Source: a virus
Taxonomy: Duplodnaviria; Caudoviricetes
Virus record (IMG/VR): IMGVR_UViG_3300025084_000012
Location: 1-64,000 of that record
DNA length: 64,000 nt
Reading direction: 5' to 3' (one strand)
Of this stretch, positions 6,158 through 57,300 are shown in pieces. A program made the position numbers and the translations under genes. Position 1 is the first letter of the stretch. Each line of letters begins with the position of its first letter. Below the pieces are notes generated by a model. It was given only the letters and a program-made list of their open reading frames with translations, ran no database searches and had not been told where the DNA came from.

Positions 6158-6559
6158 ATGATTGACAACCCTGATGGAACAAAGAGCCTCGTGCTCTTGA
6201 AGATGATACAAGAGCGTAGACCTACATCAACAGCAACGTGGAGAGAAAACGACACAAAGTTAAGAGTCTTTGACAACTTCTTAGATGCAAGAAAGTTCGT
6301 TTACGAATGGCTCAACAGGATGATGGAGTCCGCACACAGAAGTCCTCGTATCAATATAGAGTGGACACATCACTTGGAGAGAACCTACTCTGAGTCAGCA
6401 CTCCATCCTGAACGAGTGATGCCTACAATCACAGTCGAGTGGAGTCGTACTACAGACCGCAAACCGTACAAACGCTATGTCATTGGTGACATGAGTGTTG
6501 GCACAATTAGTTACTCACCTGCACAGAAAGAAGAGAATGAAAACCAATCAACTGAATGA
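6158..6559 (+). CDS. Hypothetical protein
   Basis: Single gene between promoter copies 4 and 5. Confidence 0.7.
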   Translation: MIDNPDGTKSLVLLKMIQERRPTSTATWRENDTKLRVFDNFLDARKFVYEWLNRMMESAHRSPRINIEWTHHLERTYSESALHPERVMPTITVEWSRTTDRKPYKRYVIGDMSVGTISYSPAQKEENENQSTE

Positions 6560-6560
6560 T

Positions 6561-6579
6561 GTTGATATATAAAGCAACA
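6561..6579 (+). promoter_or_regulatory. 19-bp TATA element, copy 5 (C variant)
   Basis: GTTGATATATAAAGCAACA followed by GTAAGAA. Confidence 0.85.
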
Positions 6580-6616
6580 GTAAGAATACAGAATACAAAC
6601 CAAGAGGAATGATACT

Positions 6617-9007
6617 ATGACGGAGAACCTAACATTAGAACAACTGAACAGTAGCGATAGGCTGAAGGCCATGAAGTCACAGAAGGCAAAGGCTCTGTTC
6701 ACTCATCGCTCAGCACATACTAACTACGCCATCCCTAAAGACTGGCGACCACTTGACATGGTGGCTATCCATCTGACTGACACACCACTTCACTTGGTAT
6801 CAGCAGGTACAATCATTGGCTACCCATGCTTCTTGAGAACTTGCCCTGAGTCTCCTCGTCATGGTGTGATTGAATCCATTCGTTGTGATGACGAACTCTC
6901 CCTCGTCTCTAACTTTGGTCGTCTTGTTAGCATCATGAAGAGTGAAGACCCTGATGGTTGTATGCTTCTCATGCCATTCATTGATGCATCCTCATCCTCT
7001 GTCATGGCTCTGTCTCATCCTGAAGTAGATGATACTGGCAAGACCATCATGACTACCAATGACAAGGGGCTTGAAGTCCCAGTCATGTTTCAAGGCTACA
7101 ACATCATGGGAGTAGGACACGATGGTGTCACTGCTGGTCATGGCTTCAACCTCGCTTTCCCTCTACGAGTTGATGAGTTCGACAAGGACAACATGATTAT
7201 GAACGCACTGTCTTATGCTCCTACTCACCACGAACTTGAGTTCGTCTTCAACCTCGCTGAGTCCAACCGCAATCGTGGTGTCATGGACTTACCCTCTGTG
7301 CATCACTCTCTCACACAGATTCGTGGTGCTCCTTCTCACACTCCAGTCATGCCTCCACCTGAAGGTGTTGATACTATCGGTATGGTTCCGCAAGGTGAGG
7401 TAGTCATCCAAGACTTCATCATCATGAGTGGGCTTGAAGAAGTCGCATGGCTTGAAGAGAACATCACCAAGGAGAAGTGTCCTGAAGGTTACATGGTTGT
7501 AGAACCTGCTGGTAATCGTCTCTCTCACATCTATGCTCACTGTCGTGGTGTCGGTGTCCCCTATGCTATCACTCCCTCTGTCTCTGTAGGTGACCGCTGG
7601 GTTGAGGCGTCTGCTGGTTGGGTTGTCCTCGACAACGATGGTAACTTTGAGCCTAAGCCCTATGCACCTCATGCTTACCTTGCTGACTTCTCTCGTGGAC
7701 TCAAGGATGGTAACCTCTACTGGCGTAAGCAACAAGGTTGGTTCTCAACCTTCTTCCACCAGTGGGTCAGTCTACCTATGAGCAAGCCACAAGATGTAGC
7801 ATACCTTGCTGGTATGTTCTGTGCTTGGTTACCTAAAGCCATGCTCGCTCTTGGTCTTGGTGAGATGCGCCATGCTCGTGGACTCAAGACCAATGCTAAT
7901 GCTGAGTTGTTCGCTACCATGACGGCCTGTATTGGTTCAGATGTGTGGAAGAAATTGAACAACACACCACACCTTGATACTACTCGTGGTCACTACTATG
8001 CGGCCATCGGTCATCTTGAACTCGACTGGGGTGACTCGGCTAAGATGCTTCGCTTCCTGAACAAGCACTACCGCAAAGGATGGTCTTCATCCTACGGTGG
8101 TGTCAAGTGGGGAGACTCTATGTTGATGGGTGCTGAAGTATGTGATGCTCTACAAGCATTCACTGCTGATGCTAATGAAGCAACATTGGGTGAACTCATC
8201 ACAGTCGTGAACAAAGCGGAGAACGCCGTTCACAACAACGGTTCACTGTTCAACAAGTGGCTAAGCAAGTATGCCTTTGATGCTGGTACTGCTGGCTTCA
8301 ACCCACGTCGAGACATGGATGCTATGGCCTCCGTCTTTGAGATGGCTCGTGAGTTCCTTGATGATGACCTCGCTAATGTTCGTGCTGAATTTGAAGTAGC
8401 CTCTCCACCTGAGAATGATTGGAGTGACATACTTGACTACGTTGAGAAGAAGACTCCAGCCTACTGGCGTAAGACTCCTATGGCTTCAAGCAAGAATGTA
8501 CATACTGCTCTACGAGAAATCATGGCTGTGCTACCTGCCAACTGGAGACACGGTGACAAGGGTAGCCACAACTCTCCACAGAACAAGGACTTCATCATGT
8601 GCGGTGTATCAACTTGTGAGAGTTGTGCGGCACACTTACAGTGGGCGGCTAACAATCCTCAAGAGATTCCAGCCACCCATCTATCTTCACTCAAAGCGTT
8701 GTTCGATGAGCACAGTGCTTCCCTTATGATTGCGACACCACCTGTTGATGTGTGGCTCGTCGGCTCTCAAGGTGAGACTCGGTTGAGTGTGAAGGAGCAG
8801 ATTCTTTCCATCAAGGCCAAAGAGTTCTCCCCTACACCTGAACAGTTCTCTGACTTGTATGAAGCCATTGACACTTCTGACCCTGACTCTCCTGATATGA
8901 TGCAGATACTAAGTAAGTATCTTGCCAAGCAAGGTGATGGTGTGGAACAGTTCCTTGCTGACATGGCTAAGTATCAGGACGAGAACAGTAAGGATGTGAA
9001 AGAATGA
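6617..9007 (+). CDS. PEP-synthase/PPDK-like phosphotransferase: ATP-grasp-like N-terminus, phospho-His swivel domain, unknown C-terminal domain
   Basis: GNRLSHIYAHCRGVGVPYAI matches the PEP-utilizer mobile-domain pattern (GG.TSH.A..AR..G.P); LRTCP, LLMPFIDASSSSV and GVGHDGVTAG resemble ATP-grasp motifs. Confidence 0.65.
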   Translation: MTENLTLEQLNSSDRLKAMKSQKAKALFTHRSAHTNYAIPKDWRPLDMVAIHLTDTPLHLVSAGTIIGYPCFLRTCPESPRHGVIESIRCDDELSLVSNFGRLVSIMKSEDPDGCMLLMPFIDASSSSVMALSHPEVDDTGKTIMTTNDKGLEVPVMFQGYNIMGVGHDGVTAGHGFNLAFPLRVDEFDKDNMIMNALSYAPTHHELEFVFNLAESNRNRGVMDLPSVHHSLTQIRGAPSHTPVMPPPEGVDTIGMVPQGEVVIQDFIIMSGLEEVAWLEENITKEKCPEGYMVVEPAGNRLSHIYAHCRGVGVPYAITPSVSVGDRWVEASAGWVVLDNDGNFEPKPYAPHAYLADFSRGLKDGNLYWRKQQGWFSTFFHQWVSLPMSKPQDVAYLAGMFCAWLPKAMLALGLGEMRHARGLKTNANAELFATMTACIGSDVWKKLNNTPHLDTTRGHYYAAIGHLELDWGDSAKMLRFLNKHYRKGWSSSYGGVKWGDSMLMGAEVCDALQAFTADANEATLGELITVVNKAENAVHNNGSLFNKWLSKYAFDAGTAGFNPRRDMDAMASVFEMAREFLDDDLANVRAEFEVASPPENDWSDILDYVEKKTPAYWRKTPMASSKNVHTALREIMAVLPANWRHGDKGSHNSPQNKDFIMCGVSTCESCAAHLQWAANNPQEIPATHLSSLKALFDEHSASLMIATPPVDVWLVGSQGETRLSVKEQILSIKAKEFSPTPEQFSDLYEAIDTSDPDSPDMMQILSKYLAKQGDGVEQFLADMAKYQDENSKDVKE

Positions 9008-10272
9008 ATTGGATGAAAGGATATGGAAACAAAGTTGGATGTCACACTGGTAACCCAGTTGTGTTTGAGATAGATGGTGTAGCAATACATGCTGGTGGTC
9101 ACAGTCGTGACGGTGGGTGGCATCGTATGTCACCACTACCCGACCTCGCCATCGGCCCAGCACAGGTGATGGACAATCCTCGTGCCACTGTTGTGCCTGA
9201 TGGTTGGACTTGTCAAGGCTACGTTGGTGGTGACACTCCAATGATTATCAGCATTGACTGGCCTGACTTCTCTATCCCTCAAGATGTTCACCGTGAGTTT
9301 TGGTTGGCACTCGTTGCCGACATCAAGCGGTTGGGTATCAAGACAGTCTCTACTCAATGTGTTGGTGGTCATGGTCGTACTGGTGTGCAACTATGTATAC
9401 TCGGTTACCTCATGGGTGACCCTACTTGCCTCAAGCAACCTGACACTGCATCACTCGTTGAGTATGTTCGTGACATCTATTGTCACCATGCTGTTGAGGG
9501 TAAGTCACAACAGACTTACATCGCTGAAGTCTTACAGTTACCTGAAGGCAAGCCACTCTTCGCTTCGTTCAAGAAGAAGAACAACTTCACATTCACTGAT
9601 ACATCTGACTACCCCATGAAGAAGAATGGCAAGAAGGAGAATCAACCGAAGGCTGACTACTGGTTTGCTGATGAAGATGATTACGATGACGGAGATGGTT
9701 TCCCATCCACATGGTCATTGTACTCTTGTGGTATATGCAGTACACCTGAGTGGACTCACATTGATGACTCAGTACCTCAACAGTGTAACAACTGTGGAGC
9801 GCCTGAGATGATGCTGTCCACCGATGCACTGTATGATATGTCAGGCATCTGTCCTAAGTGTGACAACACTGTGTCTCACTTTGGTATGCATGATGATGGA
9901 CACTGTGTTGTCTGTGCCGCTGAAGAAGCCAGTGTCAAGACTCGTGATGGTATGGTTCATTGTAAGAAGTCCAAGAAGTTCTACCTACCTGAGTTCATGA
10001 ACGTAGAGACATGGCACTCTCGTGATGCTGAACGCACTGCTCTACTCAAGAAGGCAGAGCAAACCAAGCGAGCCAAAGACAAGAAGGGCAAAGGCAAAGG
10101 CAAAGGCAAAGGCAAAGGCAAGAACTACCCTGCGAAGAATAAGAAACAACTCAACAATAAGGAACTGAAGCGCAAGCAAGAGGAGTCTCGCTTACGAATC
10201 TCACACAAGAGTCTTGATGACTACTTGGATGAGCGTGGGTCTGACTTCGATGGACTGGGAGACTTCATCTGA
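9004..10272 (+). CDS. Cys-based (PTP/dual-specificity-type) phosphatase with Zn fingers and a Lys-rich tail
   Basis: CVGGHGRTG = CX5R loop (9358-9384); several CxxC pairs; (KG)n tail; ATGA overlap with the upstream gene. Confidence 0.8.
   Translation: MNWMKGYGNKVGCHTGNPVVFEIDGVAIHAGGHSRDGGWHRMSPLPDLAIGPAQVMDNPRATVVPDGWTCQGYVGGDTPMIISIDWPDFSIPQDVHREFWLALVADIKRLGIKTVSTQCVGGHGRTGVQLCILGYLMGDPTCLKQPDTASLVEYVRDIYCHHAVEGKSQQTYIAEVLQLPEGKPLFASFKKKNNFTFTDTSDYPMKKNGKKENQPKADYWFADEDDYDDGDGFPSTWSLYSCGICSTPEWTHIDDSVPQQCNNCGAPEMMLSTDALYDMSGICPKCDNTVSHFGMHDDGHCVVCAAEEASVKTRDGMVHCKKSKKFYLPEFMNVETWHSRDAERTALLKKAEQTKRAKDKKGKGKGKGKGKGKNYPAKNKKQLNNKELKRKQEESRLRISHKSLDDYLDERGSDFDGLGDFI
10087..10122 (+). repeat. 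Hexamer tandem repeat (GGCAAA)x5 + GGCAAG encoding (GK)6
   Basis: Read directly. Confidence 0.95.
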
Positions 10273-10278
10273 TTGTTG

Positions 10279-10297
10279 GTTGATATATAAAGGAACA
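10279..10297 (+). promoter_or_regulatory. 19-bp TATA element, copy 6 (G variant)
   Basis: GTTGATATATAAAGGAACA; ATG at 10313. Confidence 0.85.
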
Positions 10298-10312
10298 ATA
10301 AGAGGTAATAGT

Positions 10313-16006: not shown

Positions 16007-16548
16007 ACATATTTGTATTAGATAGAAACCCAATTACTGCGGCACGTATGCATTGCGACAAGCACGTTCCCAAGATGTGCGTAGAAGCGGCACAGATGAT
16101 GGCATCAGCCCTTCACAGGCACGATGTACCTCATGATTCAATGCCCCTTACCAAGAGTGGTACAATGTACAAAGGTGGCTACAAGCATCACCCATGTACA
16201 GTATGGGCAGGTGAAACTCGTACCAACTTCTTGTGGCTTGGAGTACATGCTGTTACATTGTGTAACGAGTACAGCCAACGCTTCGGCAAAGAACATGCCT
16301 GTAACCAACCCATCCTACGGATGATGGAACTACATCATGTCATCCCTGATGACGGGCTAACACAGTTTGCATTGGCTATGCCTGATGAGTACAGACCTGA
16401 ACCTGTCGATGGTGAGATTGTATACCATGCTTATCCTAAGTTTGCTATCGAAGCATACCGTCGCTATTACCATTCCAAGCAGTTCGCCAAGTGGGAGAAG
16501 GGTACACCTGCTCCCGACTGGTGGCGAGGCGTGGAGGTGACGGCGTGA
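16003..16548 (+). CDS. Pyrimidine-dimer DNA glycosylase (T4 endonuclease V/DenV family)
   Basis: MNIFVLD..P...A..HCDKHV.KM.VE.AQM, HHPCT.W, YR.YY. Confidence 0.8.
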   Translation: MNIFVLDRNPITAARMHCDKHVPKMCVEAAQMMASALHRHDVPHDSMPLTKSGTMYKGGYKHHPCTVWAGETRTNFLWLGVHAVTLCNEYSQRFGKEHACNQPILRMMELHHVIPDDGLTQFALAMPDEYRPEPVDGEIVYHAYPKFAIEAYRRYYHSKQFAKWEKGTPAPDWWRGVEVTA

Positions 16549-16549
16549 A
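16529..16549 (+). repeat. 21-bp direct repeat, copy A
   Basis: GCGTGGAGGTGACGGCGTGAA, identical to 17155-17175. Confidence 0.95.
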
Positions 16550-17174
16550 ATCGAAGAAGGTACTGAATCTGTATGCAGGTATCGGAGGTAATCGAAGAGG
16601 ATGGAGTGACGACTATGATGTTACTGCTGTTGAATATGATGCCGAAATTGCTAAGGCTTATGCTGAAAATTTCCCTGATGACGAAGTGGTTGTTGGCGAT
16701 GCTCACGAATACCTACTCGCCCATTATCACGAGTTCGATTTCATTTGGGCTTCACCACCATGTCCGACGCATTCACAATACCGATTCAATATAGGTGTAC
16801 GTGCGAAGGGCTACGCCCCAGTCGTTCCCGACATGACGAGCCTGTACGGACTCATCACATTCCTCAAGCACCACTACGAGGGCGCTTGGGCTGTCGAGAA
16901 TGTCAGACCATACTATGAACCCCTGATTGAACCTACGGCTCGTGTTGGTCGTCATGAAGTGTGGGCTTCGTTCCCACTTAGCAACCTGAAAATAAAAAGT
17001 AATGGTATGAGGGAAAACAATAAGATTACTCAAGCACAACAAGCGAATGGTTTTGATATTTCACATACTAAAATAAAAAATAAACGACAAGCGTTGAGAA
17101 ACTGTACTCACGCCGAAGTAGGTTCTCACATCATTAAAGGATGGGAAGCCGATAGCGTGGAGGTGACGGCGTGA
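16545..17174 (+). CDS. Compact C5-cytosine DNA methyltransferase (start revised to GTG 16545)
   Basis: LNLYAGIGG (motif I), WASPPC (IV), ENV (VI); GGAGGTGA SD. Confidence 0.8.
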   Translation: MKSKKVLNLYAGIGGNRRGWSDDYDVTAVEYDAEIAKAYAENFPDDEVVVGDAHEYLLAHYHEFDFIWASPPCPTHSQYRFNIGVRAKGYAPVVPDMTSLYGLITFLKHHYEGAWAVENVRPYYEPLIEPTARVGRHEVWASFPLSNLKIKSNGMRENNKITQAQQANGFDISHTKIKNKRQALRNCTHAEVGSHIIKGWEADSVEVTA

Positions 17175-17175
17175 A
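17155..17175 (+). repeat. 21-bp direct repeat, copy B
   Basis: Identical to 16529-16549. Confidence 0.95.
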
Positions 17176-18202
17176 GATTAGGAATGCATTAGGATTATTC
17201 GATGGTACATCCTGTGGCCGACTGGCTTTGAAACGAGCAGGTATCGCATTAGATAACTACTACTCGTCTGAGATAGACAAGTATGCTATTCAAATCGCTG
17301 ATAAGAACTACCCTGATAACATACGGTTAGGCGACGTTCTCAATTGGCGTGACTGGGATTTAGAAGACGTTGATTTAATCACTGCTGGCTCTCCGTGTCA
17401 GGGTTTCTCGGCGGCTGGTAAGAAACTTAATTTTGAAGACCCTCGTAGTAAACTGTTCTTCGAGTTCGTGGATATTCTTAATCACTACAAGCCAAAGTAT
17501 TTCTTACTTGAGAATGTAAAAATGAAAGGAGAGTGGCGAAACATCATCACCGAATACTTAGGTGTCGAACCCATTCTAATCAACTCCAACTTAGTGTCAG
17601 CACAAAACAGACCTCGTTACTACTGGACAAACATACCTAACATTCAGCAACCTGACGACAAACTAATTTTTCTTGAGGATGTTCTTGAGGATGATGTTGG
17701 TGAAGAGTATCACCTAACGACAAAATGGAAAGCGTGGTGGAACAAGAACAAAGACTTTCAAATCAAAAAGAAATACTCTGACGTAAATCCTGACAAGGCA
17801 ATTTGTATGACTGCTCGACAGTACGCAAACTGGAATGGGACTTTCGTAACCGTCCCGTTTGCTATGACGGAAAGAAGGACTGAAGAATCTAAGAGAATCA
17901 GAAGAGAGTATCAGAAGAAACACGGAAGAGACTTCTCTCCAAGAAGAGGTAAGAAATTAGTACCAAGAAGCGACGGGAAGATGAATTGCTTAACAGCGAC
18001 TTACTCTCTCAAAGAGCATACAGTCCTCGACAATCAAACTGTATACAGAAAACTAACTCCTATTGAGTGTGAAAGGCTACAGACTTTACCTGATGACTAT
18101 ACGCTTGGTGTTTCTAATTCACAACGATACAAGATGTTAGGTAACGGTTGGACTGTTGATGTGATAGCCCATATCTTCAGACACATGGAGATGGAAGAAT
18201 GA
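17171..18202 (+). CDS. dcm: C5-cytosine DNA methyltransferase
   Basis: LFDG, GSPCQGFS, LENV, QNRPR, LTPIECERLQ, LGNGW. Confidence 0.92.
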   Translation: MKIRNALGLFDGTSCGRLALKRAGIALDNYYSSEIDKYAIQIADKNYPDNIRLGDVLNWRDWDLEDVDLITAGSPCQGFSAAGKKLNFEDPRSKLFFEFVDILNHYKPKYFLLENVKMKGEWRNIITEYLGVEPILINSNLVSAQNRPRYYWTNIPNIQQPDDKLIFLEDVLEDDVGEEYHLTTKWKAWWNKNKDFQIKKKYSDVNPDKAICMTARQYANWNGTFVTVPFAMTERRTEESKRIRREYQKKHGRDFSPRRGKKLVPRSDGKMNCLTATYSLKEHTVLDNQTVYRKLTPIECERLQTLPDDYTLGVSNSQRYKMLGNGWTVDVIAHIFRHMEMEE

Positions 18203-19624: not shown

Positions 19625-19821
19625 AATACCCAACATTGGTTATTCAACTAACGAGTGACTCAGGTGTGCCTATTGACATGCCTAATGACTGGCTTGAAAG
19701 TGTCATGCAAATATCGAGTATGCTTCATAGCAAATACAGATGCGGCATTGATGTCTTGTATGGTGAGGCGACTAAAGAAGGATTCAACATCATAGAAAAA
19801 GAGGTGAACAAGAATGATTGA
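19621..19821 (+). CDS. Hypothetical protein
   Basis: GTGA overlap, GAGGTG SD. Confidence 0.6.
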   Translation: MKYPTLVIQLTSDSGVPIDMPNDWLESVMQISSMLHSKYRCGIDVLYGEATKEGFNIIEKEVNKND

Positions 19822-20098
19822 CACAGACAAATACGAAGGACACACAGAAGGAGAATGGTGGTATGTTGATTTCACTAACTGCCCTAACGGGTCTAAGGAC
19901 TCATACATTATGAGCAATACTGGAAAGGTATTTCAGAATCTCACAGGTTCCTTGTTGCCTGACGAATTGCTCATAGCAGACGCACCACTACTGCTCGCAG
20001 AAGTCAAGCGGTTGCGACAAGTGGTTACTGACTTGTTGCTTGAGTTTAACATAGGTTCGTCGTCTTACTGGAGAAGAATAGAGGAGGATTTGAATTGA
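19814..20098 (+). CDS. IDTDKYEGH-family paralog 1
   Basis: MIDTDKYEGHTEGEW...IADAPLLLAEVKRLR. Confidence 0.75.
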   Translation: MIDTDKYEGHTEGEWWYVDFTNCPNGSKDSYIMSNTGKVFQNLTGSLLPDELLIADAPLLLAEVKRLRQVVTDLLLEFNIGSSSYWRRIEEDLN

Positions 20099-20409
20099 TT
20101 GACACAGACAAGTACGAAGGACATACGGAAAGACCGTGGGAGATTCATGGAGAGCGCATCTGTGCTCAAGACGCTTGCGAAGTAGGGAATGTAGGTGGTG
20201 AAATTGCGACTCTAAATCCTAAAATTGACACTCGTTTTTGGTTGCCTAACTCTCAACTCATAGCAGACGCACCACTTCTCCTTGAAGAAATCAAGCGGTT
20301 GCGTGAAGGTATCAAGGAGTTGGCGGAAAGTTGGACTAACCGAAAAGTTGGAAGACCAAGTGACCTACTTGTACTTGCGGCAAATGAGTTGAAGAGGTTG
20401 ATTGAATGA
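20095..20409 (+). CDS. IDTDKYEGH-family paralog 2
   Basis: MIDTDKYEGHTERPW...IADAPLLLEEIKRLR. Confidence 0.75.
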   Translation: MIDTDKYEGHTERPWEIHGERICAQDACEVGNVGGEIATLNPKIDTRFWLPNSQLIADAPLLLEEIKRLREGIKELAESWTNRKVGRPSDLLVLAANELKRLIE

Positions 20410-20684
20410 TTGACACAGACAAATACGAAGGACATAGTGAAGGTGAATGGAAAGTAGGCGCACGAAAAGGTGCTATGACTGTGAGGGATTCTAACGGTGA
20501 AGAAATAGCGGCAACCAATTCTTATTCAAACGCACGAATCATGGCCGACGCACCACTTCTCCTTGCAGAAGTCGAACGATTGCGTGGAGTCCTCTTGCGA
20601 ATTATTGATACTGCTAAAGGAAAACCATTCATAAGCGGACACATTAATTCAATTGTAGCAGAGGTTTTCAAGGAGTTGATTTGA
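20406..20684 (+). CDS. IDTDKYEGH-family paralog 3
   Basis: MIDTDKYEGHSEGEW...MADAPLLLAEVERLR. Confidence 0.75.
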   Translation: MIDTDKYEGHSEGEWKVGARKGAMTVRDSNGEEIAATNSYSNARIMADAPLLLAEVERLRGVLLRIIDTAKGKPFISGHINSIVAEVFKELI

Positions 20685-40956: not shown

Positions 40957-42381
40957 TCACTCACCCCTCTCTGTAAATTTAGCAGTCTTGCTACCACCGA
41001 CTTTTTCACCAGTAGCAACGCCGACCACACCTCTACCCATACCTCTCCCTATGATGAAACCATCGCCTGATACACCGTGTCCAACAATCTCTGTTACGAC
41101 GACTGAAACAATTTCAACATCGCCAAACAGAGCCATGTTCTTCTCAAGAATCTGCTCGATGCTATCAACTTGGTCACCAGAATTTTTAGTACCTTGAAGT
41201 ATACCCTGTAGAACGCCTTCAACGCCACTGTCTACACTCAGGAATACAAGGTCAGCGACGTTTTGAGAGAATTTATGTCTTACTTCGACTAAGATTTTTC
41301 TTTGTCCATTATACTCGATAATCATACCGGGTCGCAAGTCCCAACTATTCGGATGACCTGCGCTCGTGAGGTTACCAAGCATGACTGCATTTGCTTTCAG
41401 TATGTTACGACCAGTCTCTCTTGCTTGTTCGTTACTACGAACAGTGAAGTCACCAACAATCTGTGGTTCCTCTAACACCTCACCAGCCCGACCTGACTGT
41501 TTTTCTGAGTTGTTTACTTCAGCAAACGCAGTATCGTTTACAGCCGTTGGTAGACCCTCTACAATTACTCTGTTCGATATGTTTTCAATTGGGTTATTGA
41601 TTGCTGGGCCAGTACGAGCATAGTGGTCGATAAATCGACTCTTCTCCTCAAACTGGAATGGGACGTAAAGCAAGTTACCAAACCTGTCAAAGTGGATGAC
41701 TCGGCCATCATGACGGCTAATGAACCGTAGAGCATCAACAAGCGTAATACCATGAAAGTCTACACCAACGAAACTGTTGCTGTGTAGTCTTCTATCAACT
41801 TGAGAATTGCTTGGACTCAATGGCAGTGCGATGTTTACAGACGTAAGAGAATCAGCGATGTCTCTGCTGATGCGTATAGCCAAGTCTGTTGTTCTTAAGC
41901 CAGCATCAATTGGTTGTCCGAAGTGAGCCTGTGTTTGAGAAAAACCCAGTTTACTAAGTGTCTTACCCTTCATGTTTCTTACAGCAAAAGTGGTTCCAGT
42001 GCCACTATTAACAACTGAAGATGTTCGCAGTCTTTCACTATCGACACCCTTACCATAAAGCAGCACTGGTTTGTTTTTATCGCTGTCACTGGTAATGCTT
42101 GAACCTAAGTAAACCACAGAGCCTTCGTAGTTTCGCCCATGCGTGCCTGTGTGTTTTAGGATAACAGAATCCTGTAGTTCTGTCATGGTGTAAGTGTGTG
42201 GTGTAGAGACAGCATAGGTGGTGGTTTTGCGTTGCCTCACCGTGACCTTCTTCTCCAAGTTCTTCTGTGGTGTATACTCACCAAGATGAAGGGCGTTGTC
42301 CACAAACTTTGGTTTACGCACCGCCTTCATCACAACATCCGTGTCGGCTGTTGCTCGCTTGTCCTTGAGTAAACCCATCAT
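40957..42381 (-). CDS. Putative tail hub/baseplate protein
   Basis: ALRFIS..DG..IHFDRFGNL.Y; WDLRPG..I. Confidence 0.55.
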   Translation of the reverse strand: MMGLLKDKRATADTDVVMKAVRKPKFVDNALHLGEYTPQKNLEKKVTVRQRKTTTYAVSTPHTYTMTELQDSVILKHTGTHGRNYEGSVVYLGSSITSDSDKNKPVLLYGKGVDSERLRTSSVVNSGTGTTFAVRNMKGKTLSKLGFSQTQAHFGQPIDAGLRTTDLAIRISRDIADSLTSVNIALPLSPSNSQVDRRLHSNSFVGVDFHGITLVDALRFISRHDGRVIHFDRFGNLLYVPFQFEEKSRFIDHYARTGPAINNPIENISNRVIVEGLPTAVNDTAFAEVNNSEKQSGRAGEVLEEPQIVGDFTVRSNEQARETGRNILKANAVMLGNLTSAGHPNSWDLRPGMIIEYNGQRKILVEVRHKFSQNVADLVFLSVDSGVEGVLQGILQGTKNSGDQVDSIEQILEKNMALFGDVEIVSVVVTEIVGHGVSGDGFIIGRGMGRGVVGVATGEKVGGSKTAKFTERGE

Positions 42382-45300
42382 GCATCACCACTGTGGTCTG
42401 ATGTATTGAACGATACATCTTCCTTATGTCCCTTGCTGTGCAACGATTGACTGAATCTTGGTTTGACGGTGTAGTCTTTACTCTCACCAGTTCTTCTTGG
42501 AGCATCACTCTTGAAGTGCTGTAATGTGTTTTCACTGATGACAAGTCGAGTAACAGTGCTCTTCAGTGTCGTCTTATCAAAGCCAGTAACCTCTGTTCCC
42601 GGTAACTTCGGCCCTTTCGATACTGGCACAGTGTCGCTACTGCTCTCAACAAGATACACTGGTTGGTATGGCGCTGATGTGTTAGGATTGGTAGCACGCA
42701 TGTATGACCCGCTGCTTGCTCTACCGTTTGGAGTTGAGTAGGTAAACATTCCATACTTACCACCAGCAGTAGCAGTGAACGCAGTGCTACCGTTTTGCTT
42801 GCTATCAGTGTGCAAAGCCAATGCTGGTCTGAATACCGCTATGTGTTGGTTGTCGAGGAGTCGTATAGGTCGCAGCATAAACTGCACTGAATCATCAGCC
42901 ATGTTTGTCTGACTGGCTACTGAACTTGTTGTTTGGTATGGGTTGCTTGTCTTTGTACCACTCATACCACTTCGTCCCCAACCTGTATCATCGAATGGAC
43001 TGGCGAAACTACGAGCCTCCAAGATGTAAGTTCCACCCATAGGCTTGAAGTTACTTGTGTGGCTGAATCGCATCACACCACCATGAGGCTGAGCAGCGAA
43101 GGACAAGGCTGTCAGGTCGTAGTCGCCAAGCGTTTGAGAGCCTGACTGCATACCACCATGTAGCACAACTCTCTGACCCACACCTCTGTTAGTGTGTAGA
43201 CTGTGTGCTTCTGAGTTGATGGCTACCATGTTGGCGTTGCTGCCAGTCAAGGATTCTACGGTGTCTCCGTCGATACCAATTCGTGGTGACGAGCGAGAAA
43301 CAGCATCCTTGTGAACCGATGTCCCGCTGATGGATTCTACCTTGTCGCTGACTGTTGCTTCAGGTTTGAGTAGTCCGTCCTCATCGACTTCCAACCGAGC
43401 ACTAATACCTCTGACAATTTCACTTGGTTGTAGTGCATCGTTTCTTGGTCGAATCAAGCCTTGACCGAATGTAGGTTCAGCAGTGTTGCTTGATAAGACA
43501 ACACCTGAGTTTTGGTACACTGCACTGAGTTCAACCAGTCTGTCCTCATTGAATTGTGTTGGGAATCGTACACCACGTCCGTTACCCATGTCTCCTACTC
43601 GTAGTGCGTTGGTAGGAGCAAACACATCGACCAACGTGGTGTCTGCATTGTTGTTACCAGTGTTCTTTCTACCACCAAAGCGAGGTATTGTAACCGTTGG
43701 AGATGCTAATACTGCACCCGATGATGTATCTGAGTCAGCGGCTATTCCCTTGAGATTGAAGATAGGCTTGTTATTGTTCCATATACGGGCGTAAGGTGTT
43801 CTACCATTAGTTCTATCATACTCGTATGCATCTCCAGCATCCCATGATGGATTGATACCAAAACTACGAACAGGCATACGCCTAATATCCTCACCACGAG
43901 TGTTACCCCACCAGTCGATGAGATAATACGATACAGCATCTTTGTAGAAGTTCTTACCCATACCAGCGGAATCGCCCCACCAATCTCGTATCACAGTGCT
44001 GGCATTCTTCAAAGTGCGTAGAGCGCATCCAAATCCTCTCGTCATTCGTCGTCCATCGCTGTAACGCACCTGCCATTCGTATTTGTCGGCATTCAGCATA
44101 CCAGCAGCAGTTGTTCCACGCTCAAGAATACCAACATAGGTAGTCGGTAGGTTGGTACTGCTTTGTGTGCTGTCTCCGCCAGCGTAAAGCCACCCGTTAC
44201 TTGTTATAGTTTCATACTCAACCAGTGGCCCTGCTTTGTAACCAACAGCAAGATTGCTTGCACCTGAGTGTGTGGCTTGCTCTTGGAATGCTCGCATACC
44301 ATAATGACCCCATTGAGGTCTGTTCCAAGCCTGTCGTAGTCCGAAACGATAACCAAACGGATATGTTCGTATACTGCTAAGTGAAGTAGTGCTCACACCA
44401 TTAGCAACCGCATAACTACCGTCATCATCGTCATCTTTCCAATGTATACCAGCATTATGTGCGTAACTTTGTGGAACGTGCCACGCTGCTGATGACATAG
44501 CGTAACCGTCTAATCGACTAATCAGTGGCCCACCACGACTGCCGCAAGGCCAGTAATTGGTAAGCATGTAAGCCCCACCTTGAGCCGACAAACCACTGAT
44601 GGAGTTGATGTCTGTACCGCTTAGAATTTCACCATCACCATCAAGGTATACCTTGTCACCTGCCGCAAGATTACTCTCAAATATCTCAGAGTAAAGAGTG
44701 ATGTCTGCACCACTAACGCCGTTTACTCTACCAAGAACTCGCCCATTAGCAAACAAGACATCTTGGTTGCTCACCCCAGTAACTGTGTCACTCATTGTGA
44801 TAACGGTAACAGTTGTAGTTGTAACCGAACTAACAGTCCCAGCAAGTGCTTTAGGTGGAACAGGTGTCTTCATTTGTAATGTAAGTGGGCCGTGACTTGC
44901 TGTATAATTGACATCTTGGTAGTGAATTGTCTCAAAGTGCTGTGGCATACTGTTGTATGCGGCGTTATTAACGGCTCTGTCTAATGTATGATTGTCACCG
45001 TTTGTAATCCAAGTTCGGCTGGCATCTGAGTAGAATGTATGAGGCCGACCCAAGTTAGGACTCCAAGCACATAGATATGAGTCAGTTGAGAAAAGACTGT
45101 TTGTGTCTCTCGTTCCTGTAAGCAACTGACTGAGATTTTTGGTCAAAACACTTTCGTTATCTTTAGTGAAGATGTCGTTTACTGATTTTGTAGAATATGA
45201 TTTACTCAGTGTTAGTTTTGTGCCATCGGCTATGGTAACTCCCGTTGGTAGATGAAACACATCAGGCTCATTCATGGTCGCTGAACTGTGACTCAAGCCT

Positions 45301-54300: not shown

Positions 54301-57300
54301 GTAGTTGTCTTTACGTTGTAGAATGTGCCGTTGTTATAACCGCTACCGCCATCTTTTAGTGACAAAGACTTACCTTTTGAAACTCGATGTTGCATTAAAG
54401 CCTTAATCAAAATGTCATTGGATGAAAATAACTTTCTTGTTTTGTCATGCTCCTTATTTGCGTGATAGGGAATAGCAACTGCATTATTGGTACGAGATGT
54501 AATACTGTCACCGAGCGTGCGTTTCTTAGCCAACGGGCCACCAGTGTGATAACCAGTATGAATAAAATGACCATGTGCTTTACCGTAAAGAGCAGCCTGA
54601 GTCATAGCAGTTGTAGCATTGACGACACTCGTATTGGTTGTGAACACTTTGAAAACTGCATTATTACCACCACCTGAAATTCTGACTTTGGCTTCACGTC
54701 CTCCTCTTGAATTGTTATAACCACTACCAGCCGTATGTACTTGTATGTCAGTGATTTGTCCTGAAGCGGCTGTGATATTGACTCTTAGACCTGTTCCACC
54801 AGCGTTTATGCTTGTTGTCGCTACGTTAGTGGCCGTTGCATAACCAGTTCCATTTTGTCGATGCTGAAAAGTTGCACCAATGGGCTCAAGCCTTGTTACA
54901 ATTCCTGTAACTGGTTGTAGCGTCTCATTCGACATGTTGTTAGCGATATTGTGAGCGTAAGCACTTTCCATAAAGTTAGAGTGCTGATACTCTCTGATGT
55001 ATTTGTTTTGAGAAGGATAACCGTTAGCAACATCTATTTGAGTGATGAATGGATTCTGAGCACCACCATTGTATTTGATAGAATAGTTGCTTAAGTCAAT
55101 TTCATCTGTTCCGTCTGCTACATTGAGTGATGATGATAGTCGTTCAAAGCCTAACTCAGCAGCCTTTGGTGAGGTTTGAACTTGCATGTGTATGTCTTGG
55201 AAAGCGACGAACTCACGGTCATGCGCTACGTCATATAGTAAGACACGAGCATGACCTTCTGTAGCAAGATACGGGTCAAGATAGGCTATGGTCGGTGGGT
55301 TACTAATACCGAGATTAGTGTAGTTCAACTCAATGGTTTTATTGACGTGCTGAACAAAGTTACGAGCCGTTTCAATACAACTATCGCCAATCAAGAAGTT
55401 TTCAAGAGGAATCGAATCACGAGGCTCTGTAGCCATGAGTCCTTGACCGCCGTTGAAGCCTTTCCAAACAAGTGCTTCATTGAGCACACCACGACTCTTA
55501 GCGAACATACCCTGAACAGCGTGAGGGTTGTTGTAGGTCATGTTCATCCATACAGTGTCACCACGACGCAATCCACCTTGAGCATAGGGGAACAACCACG
55601 TTCTGTTTAAGCAAGCCTCTTCATCATTCTTCATCATCGAATGACATCCAGTTCTGATGTATACCTTGTCCGAGGTGGGTGAACTACTCGCTTGAGCAAT
55701 CATATTATTGAGACTGGCTAAATTATCACCAGTAACCGCCGCCTTAAGGTGAATCCGACTATCAACTGCTGGTACTGTCACTGGGTTTCCTTTAATCGCT
55801 CCTTCAACGATGTAATCAACCTGACCTAATAGCGTCACAGTAACAGCACTTCCACCGATTTCATGCTCAGCATAAATCCAATCGTTAGGTTTGACATTCA
55901 AATAAAGTGTATTGGCTTGTACAAGTTGAGATTTTGTAGCAGAGGAAAGAGCCAGCGTATCAGTCGCAGTAAGACCCGTTATCTCCCACGGCGATGAGTA
56001 AAACACGGCTCTACCAGTGTGTGATTTGTTTACGGTGTTGTCTAACTTTGTGTTGTATTTATCACTTGAAAAGAAAACATCGTAACCGTATTTTGTTAAT
56101 GTTGCTACTTCGCCTTTTAGTGTATCATTCTTGAGATAAGAAGGAGTTGCGTTGTTTTCCTTTGTCATTACTATAATACTCGACAGTGTATCAAGAGAAT
56201 CAGTAGGCGTCAGTCCACCACTAACCAATGTGCTTTTGTTTTTATTGCCCTCTCCAAAATATACGAATGTGTTTGTGCCAATTTCCAAACTGTAGTGAGC
56301 CTGTCCCATCTTCCATTCATAATCGGAGTTGATGTCGTTTGGTTGTCTTTCAATAGATGGAAACTTGTTTACATCTTCTTGACTCATGATAAGATGAGCA
56401 AAACCAGTATACACCGAGCCATTCATAATTGGCTCTACACTCAGAATAGTCCCCGTTGCTCGACCACTTTGTACTCTTGCTGCGTGAGGATTTGATAGTG
56501 GCCCTGCCTTAAACTCAACTGCACTCACATACTGGCGCAAACCATAATCGACGTTACCGCCTTGTGTTTTTACACTGGCTGAGTCATAGTAGTATTCACT
56601 TCTATTCTCGAAATCAGCAGCGACGTTGAGAGCATCTCCTTTTAGTGGGACTAAGACCTCAGAGTCGTATGAGTTACCCATAATTAGAGGTGTACCTGTT
56701 ACTAATCCAGATATAAAACCCTTAGACACATAGGACTTTTCTTTTACAATTTCTATGTAACCATCAGTCGTTGGGTTATTAGAGTACATAGCCCACTCTC
56801 CTGAAGGAAGAAACACCCTACGGAACAACAATACATTATCGACATTGAAGTGTTTGGTGTTAGATGTTGTTACATCACCTGCTGGAAACATGGTTGGGTT
56901 ACTGACGTAAACACGATAAGCACTTGAAAGCGTTTCAAAGTTTACAATGTTTGATTGATTCTTTCTTTCATTAGTAAGAATACTCTTGGCATACGCCCCG
57001 TATGCGCTTCTATCAGATGGAGGAAGGTCTTGGTATCTACGACCAACTGGAGATGGGTTCCATGTATGAGCAGTCATAGTAGGGTCGATGTGTAGTTTTA
57101 ACGAATTATCAGGGCTTGGATAACTGTTGTTCTTTTTATCAATAAAGAACTGCCCTCTAAACAAAGGAATTTCGACCAAAGCACGAGTTGAAGCAAATTG
57201 AGTTCCAAGTTGGTAATCGTGAGATACGTTGTCCATTGATTGAAACATTCGGTCATTGACTGTTGTACCGTCTGACTGTAGATTTTCAATAAAGAAGTGT

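What the first reader, a model, noticed from the sequence alone, without database searches (positions are those of the whole stretch)
6561..10272. Viral dikinase-like phosphotransferase paired with a CX5R phosphatase: a candidate writer/eraser system
A two-gene unit sits between promoter copies 5 and 6. The 796-aa protein has ATP-grasp-like motifs and a phospho-His swivel domain (SH, His about residue 304). The PEP-binding barrel of PEP synthase/PPDK is replaced by about 400 unrecognised residues (GWSSSYGGVKW, CxxC..C.H). Established knowledge: rifampicin phosphotransferase and glucan-water dikinase reuse this module to phosphorylate other acceptors. The overlapping gene encodes a Cys-dependent phosphatase with Zn fingers and a basic tail. 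Inference: the pair is an early, reversible phosphorylation switch acting on a host protein, nucleotide or nucleic-acid end (takeover or anti-defence). I do not recognise it as a described viral system.
Basis: partly seen in the sequence, partly recalled or inferred. Interest (0 to 1): 0.82.

Follow-up and report, generated by a model that had tools for sequence, protein, structure and literature searches.

The report
Viral dikinase-like enzyme paired with phosphatase
A virus of marine archaea carries a two-gene unit, found as an obligate pair in many unrelated tailed viruses, made of an ATP-driven phosphate-shuttling enzyme with an unknown target-binding domain and a cysteine phosphatase; its target is unknown, and its relatives in cultured phages have been misread as a sugar-metabolism gene.

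Summary
Gene A (6617-9007, 796 aa) and gene B (9004-10272, 422 aa) overlap by ATGA and lie between copies 5 and 6 of a 24-nt TATA-type promoter.

- **Gene A.** No sequence library recognises it. Its confident model (pLDDT 87.8) superposes ATP-grasp plus phospho-His swivel together on rifampin phosphotransferase (Z 12.4, 269 residues) and PPDK. His304 is invariant. The PEP/pyruvate barrel is replaced by a conserved helical domain without a fold match.
- **Gene B.** It is a compact PTP with invariant WPD Asp88, Cys119-x5-Arg125 and a QQ Q-loop, followed by four CxxC pairs and a basic tail.
- **Linkage.** B flanks A in 46/46 complete magrovirus-type loci and in 24/24 complete loci of distant viruses (A about 28% identical).
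- **Split form.** In 40 cultured phage records (33 Vibrio, 4 Stenotrophomonas, 2 Rhizobium, 1 Rhodobacter) the helical domain is a separate protein. In the three clusters inspected it sits beside PTPs and a barrel-less "PPDK", which the literature reads as a glycolysis gene.

The chemistry (ATP to His to acceptor, plus a Cys phosphatase) is well supported. The substrate, and whether the pair acts as writer and eraser, is not shown. I favour a nucleic-acid or nucleotide target (about 45%). This is a new variant of a known kind.

The parts
6551..6585 (+). Promoter-motif copy 5 (GTTGATATATAAAGCAACAGTAAGA, TATA-type) upstream of gene A; an AGAGGA Shine-Dalgarno-like stretch lies before the ATG
   Evidence: Repeat family D1, 11 copies, plus one more at 1619; sequence read
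6617..9007 (+). Gene A, 796 aa: dikinase-type phosphotransferase (ATP-grasp, swivel His, helical acceptor domain, Zn-knuckle tail)
6617..7351 (+). A residues 1-245: ATP-grasp nucleotide-binding domain. Invariant R74, R81, E206/E208 and Q234/R236, the last four in ELEFV...LTQIRGAP, which I read from memory as the PPDK-type E-x-E...Q-x-R signature
   Evidence: VIA Z 9.3 to the RPH ATP-grasp 5hv1, Z 8.4 to HpeI, Z 9.9 to PEPS 2ols; invariant columns
7352..7651 (+). A residues 246-345: phospho-histidine swivel domain; catalytic His304 at 7526-7528 in GNRLSHIYAHCR
   Evidence: Superposes together with the ATP-grasp on RPH 5hv2 (chain up to residue 867) and PPDK 1kbl (up to 516). His invariant. hhalign places it on the GG-TSH-AAVVAR His of phage PEP-utilizers domains, at low probability
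7652..8326 (+). A residues 346-570: conserved all-helical domain, the presumed acceptor site. Invariant E416, R418, G494, G495, W498, H539, N540, G542 and K547 in fused and split forms alike; R457 and W489 invariant among the fused forms only
   Evidence: no fold match
8327..9004 (+). A residues 571-796: lineage-specific helical tail with an H645/C662/C667/C670 metal-binding cluster; absent from minimal family members of 500-600 aa
9004..10272 (+). Gene B, 422 aa: PTP-superfamily Cys phosphatase with Zn ribbons and a basic tail; its start overlaps the stop of A (ATGA)
9004..9588 (+). B residues 1-195: catalytic PTP domain. WPD-type Asp88, Cys119 (9358-9360)-x5-Arg125-Thr126, Q-loop Q169/Q170
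   Evidence: Profile against PDB: CRYP-2 2pi7 E 6.5e-5, with WPD, P-loop and Q-loop aligned; these residues invariant in 44 homologues
9727..9918 (+). B residues 242-305: four CxxC pairs, probably two zinc ribbons
   Evidence: weak profile match to the Shiftless zinc-ribbon region (E 0.004); the number of CxxC pairs varies from 0 to 10 among homologues
10045..10200 (+). B residues about 348-399: lysine/glycine-rich basic tail (KKAEQTKRAKDKKGKGKGKGKGKGK...), present only in the closest clade
10269..10303 (+). Promoter-motif copy 6; it begins at the stop codon of B and opens the next transcription unit

Best explanation
Genes A and B form one co-transcribed, probably translationally coupled unit of a magrovirus-type archaeal virus. 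They make up an obligate two-enzyme phosphoryl-transfer module.

Supported by structure and conservation:
- A is a three-part dikinase-type enzyme. Its ATP-grasp domain binds ATP and phosphorylates His304 on a PPDK/RPH-type swivel domain.
- The position of the PEP/pyruvate barrel is taken by a conserved helical domain with an invariant polar pocket (E416, R418, GG494-495, W498, H539, N540, K547, plus R457 and W489 in the fused forms). This domain can also exist as a separate protein.
- B is a catalytically complete Cys phosphatase, with general acid Asp88, nucleophile Cys119, Arg125 and Q-loop Q169/Q170.

Inferred:
- Phospho-His304 swings to the helical domain and passes the phosphate to an acceptor bound there (ATP + X + H2O to AMP + X-P + Pi).
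- B hydrolyses a phosphate on the same substrate class.

My favoured reading (about 45% of the probability for this mechanism) is that the substrate is a nucleic acid or nucleotide: a polynucleotide end treated as T4 PNKP treats it, with a kinase on one end and a phosphatase on the other, or a nucleotide or DNA modification intermediate. The pair would then serve genome replication or counter-defence. It is not a glycolytic enzyme.
For: Fold:
- RPH 5hv2/5hv3 Z 12.4/12.1 over 269-270 residues spanning ATP-grasp and swivel; PPDK 1kbl Z 9.3 over 274 residues; PEPS 2ols Z 9.9.
- Foldseek's top hits are PPDK, RPH and PEPS.
- The model is confident: pLDDT 87.8 for the whole protein and 89.3 for the C-terminal part.

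Conservation:
- H304 and the ATP-grasp residues are invariant in 57 sequences and in the distant family.
- The helical-domain motifs GE-R-H, YGG--W and HN-G--FNK are invariant across fused and split forms.

Separable helical domain:
- RcZahn gp10, DLP3 gp140 and V-YDF132 UOX39991 match the distant-family profile at E 1e-12 to 1e-15.
- In those three phages they lie between PTP genes, downstream of a PPDK_N + PEP-utilizers protein that lacks the barrel.
- The stand-alone protein occurs in 40 cultured-phage records.

B:
- WPD loop, P-loop and Q-loop align with classical PTPs (E 6.5e-5), and the catalytic residues are invariant.

Linkage:
- 46/46 and 24/24 complete loci, plus a GenBank podovirus.
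- No third conserved partner.

Lean towards nucleic acid (weak):
- Distant B homologues pass the Pfam cut-off for PTP-SAK (39.5 bits against 27), a domain of the 'Swiss Army Knife' proteins that the companion Pfam family HAD_SAK_2 describes as RNA repair proteins.
- B carries Zn ribbons and a basic tail.
- Neighbours include an RNA ligase, HAD_SAK_2, SpoU and RapZ_C, each in a single locus.
- The split cluster abuts the DNA polymerase gene.
- DLP3 DNA resists 15 restriction enzymes (PMC7326821).
Against: - No sequence model places A in the PPDK/PEPS/RPH family. Pfam, NCBIfam, PHROGs and PDB searches find nothing, and hhalign to phage PPDK-like proteins gives only the His motif at probability 3.5%. 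Homology therefore rests on a predicted structure plus motifs.
- No biochemical datum exists. Autophosphorylation, the acceptor and the fate of the gamma-phosphate are all inferred.
- B's WPD and Q-loop features are those of protein-tyrosine phosphatases, which favours a protein substrate.
- The window's own B does not reach the PTP-SAK or Y_phosphatase cut-offs.
- RNA-themed neighbours are single cases among heterogeneous contexts.
- DLP3's restriction resistance may come from other genes, such as its glycosyltransferase.
Confidence: 0.55

Rival explanations
1. Writer/eraser switch on a host or viral protein. A phosphorylates a protein residue through phospho-His304, and B, a classical-type PTP, reverses it, giving timed control of a host machine such as RNA polymerase, translation or a defence protein.
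For: - B aligns best with classical protein-tyrosine phosphatases, including the WPD loop and Q-loop.
- PPDK-derived proteins can act as regulatory histidine kinases that bind other proteins (VadK, PMC13400623). RcZahn gp6 resembles that truncated type, NF004531.
- In at least one podovirus-type locus the pair lies just upstream of a T7-like RNA polymerase gene. From memory, T7 keeps its protein kinase gp0.7 in that position.
Against: - An antagonistic pair made from one promoter with overlapping genes would run a futile cycle unless it is regulated.
- The acceptor domain has an enzyme-like invariant polar pocket, not a recognisable protein-docking module.
- No target is identifiable.
- The module is conserved in viruses of both archaea and bacteria, which share few host protein targets.
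Confidence: 0.2
2. Step(s) in a DNA or nucleotide hypermodification pathway. A phosphorylates (activates) a hydroxyl on a nucleotide or on a base in DNA. The PTPs trim phosphates from intermediates. The result is restriction-resistant DNA.
For: - The split cluster lies directly beside the DNA polymerase I gene in all three inspected phages, and beside the dCTP deaminase gene in V-YDF132.
- DLP3 DNA resists all 15 restriction enzymes tried, and the modification is unidentified (PMC7326821).
- In two jumbo-phage loci the neighbours include a glutathionylspermidine-synthase-like amidoligase and PLP aminotransferases.
- From memory, activation of 5-hmdU in DNA by phosphorylation is a known route to hypermodification, carried out there by a P-loop kinase.
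Against: - The window has no hydroxymethylase or thymidylate-synthase homologue near the pair. I found only C5-methyltransferases.
- Most contexts carry no modification genes.
- Illumina assemblies of these viruses are unproblematic.
- DLP3 has other candidate modification genes.
Confidence: 0.15
3. Phosphorelay in which B is the acceptor. Phosphate passes from ATP to His304 to Cys119 of B, as in the sugar phosphotransferase system (EI His to EIIB Cys). B then delivers it to a final substrate.
For: - Strict pairing and ATGA coupling suggest a complex.
- From memory, the swivel domain is the same one used by PTS enzyme I, and His-to-Cys relays exist there.
Against: - B keeps the general acid Asp88 and the Q-loop glutamines, which in PTPs promote rapid hydrolysis of the Cys-phosphate. 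That is the opposite of what a relay needs.
- In split systems two different PTPs accompany one helical protein.
Confidence: 0.07
4. Auxiliary metabolic gene. A is a pyruvate phosphate dikinase or PEP synthase that boosts host central carbon metabolism. This is the published reading for the cultured-phage relatives.
For: The cultured-phage proteins hit PPDK_N and PEP-utilizers strongly (E 1e-42 to 1e-50 and 1e-21 to 1e-27) and are annotated as PPDK (PMC12038007, PMC9229204).
Against: - None of them has the PEP/pyruvate-binding barrel. Pfam finds no PEP-utilizers_C. TIGR01828 is matched only over positions 12-523 of 865, at 570 bits against a cut-off of 843.
- A's C-terminal half is all-helical.
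- Constant linkage to PTPs and to the helical protein has no place in glycolysis.
Confidence: 0.02
5. Polysaccharide phosphorylation cycle like plant glucan-water dikinase plus the SEX4/LSF2 phosphatases. The pair loosens and then clears a host glycan (storage glucan, envelope or S-layer glycan) for degradation.
For: From memory, GWD/PWD with SEX4/LSF2 is the only well-known pairing of a PPDK-family dikinase with a CX5R phosphatase, and both enzymes are needed for one process. The fold and motif assignments of A and B match the two enzyme classes.
Against: - Pfam finds no carbohydrate-binding module in either protein.
- No glycoside hydrolase is among the neighbours.
- The genomic position is among replication or early genes.
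Confidence: 0.04

Closest known systems
Rifampin phosphotransferase (RPH; PDB 5hv1/5hv2/5hv3)
   Same: Best structural match: ATP-grasp and swivel His domain superpose together (Z 12.4, 269 residues). Like RPH, A replaces the PEP barrel with a different acceptor-binding domain. A weak language-model lead links A's helical domain to Pfam Rph_4th (score 0.84-0.85).
   Different: Domain order differs: RPH is ATP-grasp, RIF-binding domain, swivel, while A is ATP-grasp, swivel, helical domain. There is no detectable sequence similarity. The C-terminal model does not match the RPH RIF-binding domain among the top VIA rows. RPH has no phosphatase partner and is bacterial.
Pyruvate phosphate dikinase / PEP synthase (PDB 1kbl, 1dik, 2ols)
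   Same: Same domain order for the first two domains. The swivel His sits in an S-H motif. I read the E-x-E...Q-x-R ATP-grasp signature as shared, from memory of the PPDK sequence. Matches: Z 9.3 over 274 residues and Z 9.9.
   Different: No PEP/pyruvate TIM barrel. The Pfam PPDK_N, PEP-utilizers and PEP-utilizers_C models are not matched.
Barrel-less 'PPDK' clusters of cultured phages (Rhodobacter RcZahn gp6-gp12, Stenotrophomonas DLP3 gp135-142, Vibrio V-YDF132, Virtus, J26, SIO-2, VHS1)
   Same: Same parts list: ATP-grasp + swivel protein, a helical-domain protein homologous to A residues about 390-560 (E 1e-12 to 1e-15), and PTPs homologous to B (E 1e-8 to 1e-16).
   Different: The system is split into separate genes. 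It usually has two PTPs and small intervening genes. The dikinase part is still recognisable by Pfam. Hosts are bacteria. The literature treats the parts as unrelated auxiliary metabolic genes.
Truncated PPDK-type kinase VadK (Rv1127c) and two-component dikinases (HpeHI, phenylphosphate synthase)
   Same: Precedents for ATP-grasp + swivel units that lack the PEP barrel and work with separate partner proteins (PMC13400623, PMC12167813). HpeI matches at Z 8.4. RcZahn gp6 matches NF004531, a 534-position PPDK model, over positions 19-489. I take NF004531 to be the VadK-type truncated PPDK, from memory.
   Different: Bacterial metabolic or regulatory enzymes. No helical domain of this type and no PTP partner is reported for them.
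Glucan-water dikinase with SEX4/LSF2 (plants); T4 polynucleotide kinase-phosphatase
   Same: Functional analogies, recalled from memory. GWD/SEX4 is a PPDK-family dikinase working with a CX5R phosphatase on one polymer. T4 PNKP is a viral kinase and phosphatase inherited together because they act on two ends of one broken RNA.
   Different: GWD has carbohydrate-binding modules, and none was found here. T4 PNKP uses a P-loop kinase and a HAD phosphatase, which are unrelated folds.
Classical protein-tyrosine phosphatases and Pfam PTP-SAK (PF22784)
   Same: B shares the WPD loop, the C-x5-R-T P-loop and the Q-loop with classical PTPs. Distant B homologues pass the PTP-SAK cut-off.
   Different: B's catalytic domain is about 190 aa and, by my reading, has no pTyr-recognition loop. 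The window's B scores below the Pfam cut-offs. It carries Zn ribbons and a basic tail.

Membership tests
PEP-utilising dikinases (PPDK / PEPS / RPH / GWD) | N-terminal ATP-grasp nucleotide-binding domain of the PPDK_N type | tested here: met
   By predicted structure: RPH Z 12.4, PEPS Z 9.9, PPDK Z 9.3-9.6. Invariant R74, R81, E206/E208, Q234/R236.
PEP-utilising dikinases (PPDK / PEPS / RPH / GWD) | Swivel (mobile) domain carrying the catalytic histidine | tested here: met
   Residues 246-345 superpose with the swivel domains of RPH (chain up to 867) and PPDK (up to 516) in one alignment with the ATP-grasp. H304 is invariant in (G)S-x-x-S-H. hhalign puts it on the catalytic His of phage PEP-utilizers domains, at low probability.
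PEP-utilising dikinases (PPDK / PEPS / RPH / GWD) | Recognition by the family's sequence models (PF01326, PF00391, TIGR01828 and others) | tested here: not met
   No hit at E up to 1 in Pfam, none in NCBIfam, and none in PDB by sequence or profile.
PEP-utilising dikinases (PPDK / PEPS / RPH / GWD) | ATP-dependent autophosphorylation on His, with AMP + Pi (or PPi) as products | not testable with these tools
   Needs purified protein.
Pyruvate phosphate dikinase / PEP synthase proper | C-terminal PEP/pyruvate-binding TIM barrel (PF02896) | tested here: not met
   Residues 346-796 are all-helical at pLDDT 89. No Pfam hit. The cultured-phage relatives also lack it.
PTP superfamily (Cys-dependent phosphatases) | P-loop C-x5-R-(S/T) with a nucleophilic Cys | tested here: met
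   C119-VGGHG-R125-T126, invariant in 44 homologues.
PTP superfamily (Cys-dependent phosphatases) | General-acid Asp on a loop about 30 residues upstream (WPD loop) and Q-loop glutamine(s) | tested here: met
   W86-P87-D88 and Q169-Q170 align with the WPD and Q-loops of CRYP-2 and PTPRO and are invariant or nearly so.
PTP superfamily (Cys-dependent phosphatases) | Score above the curated cut-off of a Pfam PTP model | tested here: inconclusive
   Window B: Y_phosphatase 14.1 bits against 20.9. Some homologues carry a precomputed PF00102 hit. Distant homologues pass PTP-SAK at 39.5, 30.5, 30.0, 28.8 and 27.9 bits against 27.
T4 PNKP-type end-healing enzymes | P-loop polynucleotide kinase domain and DxDxT (HAD) 3'-phosphatase domain | tested here: not met
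   Neither fold is present. A is ATP-grasp/swivel and B is a PTP. Any likeness is functional analogy only.
Glucan-water dikinase / glucan phosphatase pair | Carbohydrate-binding module on the dikinase and/or the phosphatase | tested here: inconclusive
   Pfam finds no CBM in A or B. A divergent glycan-binding surface cannot be excluded.
Magrovirus-type archaeal tailed virus (context of the window) | About 100-kb genome, archaeal-type replication genes (PolB, RFC, ERCC4/Hef-type nuclease), chaperonin, TATA-type promoters | tested here: met
   PolB, RFC-like AAA, ERCC4+HhH and PD-(D/E)XK, chaperonin, TATA-type motif in 12 copies. Homologous contigs are 95-115 kb and come from marine samples. Capsid genes were not examined.

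The most novel reading that the evidence does not exclude
The module is a previously unrecognised, virus-specific class of phosphoryl-transfer system. An ATP-grasp/swivel-His 'engine' feeds a new helical catalytic domain that phosphorylates nucleic acid: polynucleotide ends or a base or sugar hydroxyl in DNA or RNA. A dedicated PTP completes the reaction cycle. It would be a fold-independent reinvention of PNKP-type healing, or a new route to DNA modification, shared by archaeal viruses, T7-like podoviruses, jumbo phages and about 40 cultured siphovirus records.
Probability: 0.3. Interest if true: 0.88.

Novelty: new variant of a known kind. Interest (0 to 1): 0.72.

Why it matters
**1. A large, unnamed, virus-restricted enzyme family.** The family has 523 representative clusters at 50% identity with E up to 1e-3. 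None of those tested has a Pfam, PHROG or NCBIfam model. Its catalytic logic can be read from structure, but its acceptor domain is new. Finding the substrate would add a reaction type to virus-host biology.

**2. A wide and strict pairing.** The pair holds across viruses of archaea and bacteria. That points to a target common to both domains, such as nucleic acids, nucleotides or core machinery, and probably to a takeover or counter-defence role.

**3. A correction to the literature.** The 'pyruvate phosphate dikinase' reported as an auxiliary metabolic gene in Vibrio, Stenotrophomonas, Rhizobium and Rhodobacter phages lacks the pyruvate/PEP domain. It belongs to this module, so it should not be counted as a carbon-metabolism gene in viral ecology.

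**4. The question is testable now.** Cultured phages carry the split form, so the function can be studied by genetics and biochemistry in laboratory hosts, even though the archaeal virus itself is uncultured.

Tried and rejected
**Sequence searches for A that found nothing**
- Pfam (only a chance 1-cysPrx_C hit), PHROGs, NCBIfam, and PDB by phmmer and by profiles A1 and A4.
- megablast and tblastn against GenBank phages with the window's A.
- Ten distant family members also carry no Pfam domain.

**C-terminal domain alone**
- Foldseek best E 0.095. VIA best Z 6.5, to generic helical bundles and GPCR-like designs, which is uninformative.
- The ESM Atlas gave a lead to Pfam Rph_4th at 0.84-0.85, below the 0.9 level and with few shared features. 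I could not confirm it. RPH did not appear among the structural matches of the C-terminal model.

**Other checks**
- hhalign of A1 and A4 against phage PPDK-like proteins aligned only the His motif, at probability 1.4-3.5%.
- Complex prediction of A with B residues 1-200 gave no verdict (score 0.00). I do not use it for or against binding.
- The search for RNA sequencing runs listed no RNA holder, so nothing can be said about expression or timing.
Contexts of distant members came from IMG/VR and GTDB scans instead.
- No A-B fusion was found among 403 fetched proteins.
- No third conserved neighbour was found: only A and B cluster across loci, and Pfam tallies of 150 neighbours and of the genes next to B were heterogeneous.
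- The paper defining the 'Swiss Army Knife' RNA-repair proteins (NAR 2016, PMC5062991) is not held. That link rests on Pfam's own family descriptions.
- The PHROG hit of B to phrog_17568, labelled 'thymidylate synthase', is rejected as a wrong label. The DLP3 gene with that annotation is a PTP homologue.

**Reading rejected**
- Metabolic PPDK or PEPS, because there is no barrel.

Full report
**What is there.** The stretch holds two same-strand ORFs, A at 6617..9007 (796 aa) and B at 9004..10272 (422 aa). A's stop and B's start overlap in ATGA. A 24-nt motif, GTTGATATATAAAGSAACAGTAAGA, occurs at least 12 times on the + strand of the first 34 kb. Copies at 6551-6585 and 10269-10303 bracket the pair and are the fifth and sixth in order.

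**The virus.** The window encodes a family-B DNA polymerase, an RFC-like clamp loader, an ERCC4/HhH nuclease, a PD-(D/E)XK nuclease, C5-methyltransferases and a chaperonin. A 6059-aa ORF lies on the opposite strand. Homologous contigs are 95-115 kb and come from marine samples. Together with earlier notes of this scan, this marks a magrovirus-type tailed virus of marine group II archaea. The magrovirus papers I could read do not mention this gene pair.

**Gene A, N-terminal half.**
- Sequence libraries are blind to A: Pfam, PHROGs, NCBIfam and the PDB by sequence or profile.
- An AlphaFold2 model built on 57 homologues is confident (pLDDT 87.8, pTM 0.81).
- Foldseek ranks PPDK, rifampin phosphotransferase (RPH) and PEP synthase first.
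- A search independent of Foldseek puts the RPH ATP-grasp first (Z 9.3), with HpeI and PPDK also listed.
- The decisive result is the re-alignment. The RPH structures 5hv2/5hv3 align at Z 12.4/12.1 over 269-270 residues, model 9-341 against chain 5-867. In one superposition that covers both the ATP-grasp (RPH 1-314) and the swivel phospho-His domain (RPH 767-865; domain limits from PMC4844700).
- PPDK 1kbl aligns over 274 residues, model 10-348 against chain 6-516 (Z 9.3).
- Invariant residues include R74, R81, E206, E208, Q234 and R236. I recognise ELEFV...LTQIRGAP as the PPDK-type E-x-E...Q-x-R signature, from memory. His304 in GNRLSHIYAHCR is also invariant. In the distant branch the motif reads HPGGS--SHAA-HCR, which I recognise, from memory, as close to the canonical GG-TSHAA--AR.
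- Profile-profile alignment to phage proteins with a bona fide PEP-utilizers domain places His304 on their catalytic His, but at low probability.
- Conclusion: the ATP-grasp/swivel assignment is confirmed by predicted structure and motifs, not by sequence statistics.

**Gene A, C-terminal half.**
- Residues 346-796 are entirely helical (pLDDT 89.3 when folded alone).
- They have no informative structural neighbour: Foldseek E at least 0.095, VIA Z at most 6.5 to generic bundles.
- There is no TIM barrel, so A is not a PPDK or a PEP synthase.
- Residues about 346-570 belong to the conserved core of the whole superfamily. Minimal members of 500-600 aa end there.
- The core keeps an invariant polar set: E416 and R418 (GEMRHA), G494-G495 and W498 (GWSSSYGGVKW), and H539, N540, G542 and K547 (HNNGSLFNKW). 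R457, Y460 and W489 are conserved among the fused forms.
- The last 225 residues, with an H645/C662/C667/C670 cluster, are specific to the magrovirus clade.
- A protein-language-model search twice pointed the helical part to Pfam Rph_4th, a domain of RPH-like proteins. The scores (0.84-0.85) count only as a lead, and I could not confirm it.

**Gene B.**
- A profile of 44 homologues matches classical protein-tyrosine phosphatases (CRYP-2, E 6.5e-5). The WPD loop (IDWPDFSIP), the P-loop (C119-VGGHG-R125-T) and the Q-loop (VEGKSQQTYI) are aligned.
- D88, C119, R125, Q169 and Q170 are invariant.
- The catalytic domain is compact, about 190 aa.
- It is followed by four CxxC pairs and, in the closest clade only, a K/G-rich basic tail.
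- Distant homologues pass the Pfam cut-off for PTP-SAK. This is the DSP-PTPase domain of the "Swiss Army Knife" proteins, which the companion Pfam family HAD_SAK_2 describes as RNA repair proteins.
- B keeps everything needed to hydrolyse the Cys-phosphate intermediate. I therefore read it as a true phosphatase, not a relay station.

**The pair is obligate and widespread.**
- Among 49 IMG/VR loci with a close A homologue, 46 have a B homologue starting at or just after the end of A. The other three are cut by the contig end.
- A full-library search finds 523 representative clusters with E up to 1e-3.
- A profile of distant members (about 28% identity to A's relatives) retrieved 23 further viral contigs of 7-448 kb and three bacterial MAG contigs, one next to an integrase.
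- In 24 of these 26 loci a PTP gene flanks the A homologue, usually downstream and in one lineage (three near-identical loci) upstream. The other two loci are truncated.
- A complete 41-kb podovirus genome in GenBank shows the same pair, annotated "hypothetical protein" and "dual specificity protein phosphatase", among small genes divergent from the terminase gene.
- All-against-all clustering of neighbours finds no third conserved partner.
- Pfam tallies of 150 neighbouring proteins are heterogeneous: T7-like RNA polymerase, integrases, replication ATPases, an amidoligase with aminotransferases in two jumbo-phage loci, and single cases of RNA ligase, HAD_SAK_2, SpoU and RapZ_C.
- No A-B fusion was seen.

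**A split form in cultured phages.**
- B's catalytic domain finds only six cultured phages by tblastn: four Vibrio, one Stenotrophomonas (DLP3) and one Rhodobacter (RcZahn).
- In RcZahn, DLP3 and V-YDF132 the PTP lies in a conserved cluster: "pyruvate phosphate dikinase", one to three small genes, a PTP, a hypothetical protein of 330-357 aa, a second PTP, another hypothetical protein, and then (directly, or after two small genes) the DNA polymerase gene.
- That 330-357-aa protein is homologous to A's helical domain. It matches the distant-family profile at E 1e-12 to 1e-15 over the GE-R-H, YGG--W and HN-G--FNK region, and BLASTP to the window's A gives down to 8e-5.
- It occurs in 40 cultured-phage records: 33 Vibrio, 4 Stenotrophomonas, 2 Rhizobium, 1 Rhodobacter. 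That is nearly the host distribution published for viral "PPDK" (PMC12038007).
- The "PPDK" itself has PPDK_N and PEP-utilizers but no PEP-utilizers_C. It matches TIGR01828 only over positions 12-523 of 865 and falls below the cut-off.
- So the helical domain is a separable unit that travels with a barrel-less dikinase and with PTPs. The window's A is the fused form. The published reading of the phage gene as a glycolytic auxiliary gene (PMC12038007, PMC9229204) is not tenable on domain content.

**How it most likely works.**
- Shown by structure prediction and conservation: an ATP-grasp site, a swivel His, a conserved polar pocket on a helical domain, and a complete Cys-phosphatase active site, inherited together.
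- Inferred from the established mechanism of PPDK, PEPS and RPH: ATP phosphorylates His304, the swivel domain carries the phosphate to the helical domain, and an acceptor bound there is phosphorylated. B removes a phosphate from the same substrate class.
- The substrate is unknown.
- I lean towards nucleic acid or nucleotide (about 45%). The reasons are the PTP-SAK affinity, the Zn ribbons and basic tail of B, the cationic and aromatic invariant pocket of A, the position beside DNA polymerase in cultured phages, the unexplained restriction resistance of DLP3 DNA (PMC7326821), and the fact that a co-inherited kinase and phosphatase is the logic of T4 PNKP.
- A protein target is the main rival (about 20-25%). 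B looks like a classical PTP, truncated PPDKs can be regulatory kinases (PMC13400623), and in one T7-like context the pair sits just upstream of the RNA polymerase gene.
- A His-to-Cys relay, a glycan cycle of the GWD/SEX4 type and a metabolic PPDK are less likely, or excluded, for the reasons given under rivals.

**Novelty and verdict.**
- The enzyme classes are known, and dikinases with swapped acceptor domains are known (RPH, GWD, HpeHI).
- New here: the helical acceptor domain, its existence in fused and split forms, its invariable partnership with PTPs, its restriction to viruses of both prokaryotic domains, and the re-reading of the phage "PPDK".
- I rate it a new variant of a known kind, with high interest because the function is open and testable in cultured phages.
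Its "reversible switch" model remains one hypothesis among several.

Noticed in passing
window 847-33806 (copies at 847, 1619, 4494, 6112, 6551, 10269, 11876, 15605, 19004, 23266, 30002, 33772): At least 12 + strand copies of a 24-nt motif, GTTGATATATAAAGSAACAGTAAGA, each in front of a gene block. It contains a TATA-like core, consistent with an archaeal-type viral promoter. In several copies the conservation extends tens of bases on both sides (families D2-D4).
   Followed up: partly
window 42378-60557 (-): A single 6059-aa ORF on the minus strand within the block of leftward genes. It was not analysed here.
   Followed up: no
L077 2013-8104 (RcZahn gp6-gp12); L078 1781-8152 (DLP3 gp135-142); L079 614-6256 (V-YDF132): The 'pyruvate phosphate dikinase' auxiliary metabolic gene of cultured Vibrio, Stenotrophomonas, Rhizobium and Rhodobacter phages lacks the PEP/pyruvate barrel. 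It sits in a conserved cluster with two PTPs and a helical protein homologous to A's C-terminal domain. The AMG annotation looks wrong.
   Followed up: yes
L078 6415-7191 (DLP3 gp141); PHROG phrog_17568: DLP3 gp141 is annotated 'thymidylate synthase', and phrog_17568 carries the same label. Both match the PTP profile of gene B (E 3e-14 and 1.3e-10). The label is probably a propagated annotation error.
   Followed up: partly
window 19812-20589: Three tandem units of about 281-311 nt share two conserved blocks (47 nt and 80 nt) separated by unrelated sequence (repeat families D5, D7). Another first-stage note describes this as a tandem gene array.
   Followed up: no
window 16529-16549 and 17155-17175: A perfect 21-bp direct repeat (GCGTGGAGGTGACGGCGTGAA). 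Its second copy lies at the junction of two C5-cytosine methyltransferase-like ORFs (16491-17174, which matches only the first 79 positions of the DNA_methylase model, and 17171-18202, which matches the full length). The first copy lies near the start of the shorter ORF.
   Followed up: no
L051 9772-10686 and 1443-2354 (Chloroflexi MAG contig, 426 kb): A distant A-B pair in a bacterial MAG lies about 2.6 kb from a tyrosine-integrase gene (upstream of A) and about 1 kb from an RNA ligase (PF09414) gene (downstream of B). It is probably an integrated element. This was the only ligase neighbour seen.
   Followed up: partly
window 9004-9240 (B residues 1-79) and 9481-9489 (B residues 160-162): Besides the catalytic Cys, B's PTP domain has nearly invariant C13, H14, C70, C160 and H162. 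They might form an extra metal site inside the catalytic domain.
   Followed up: no
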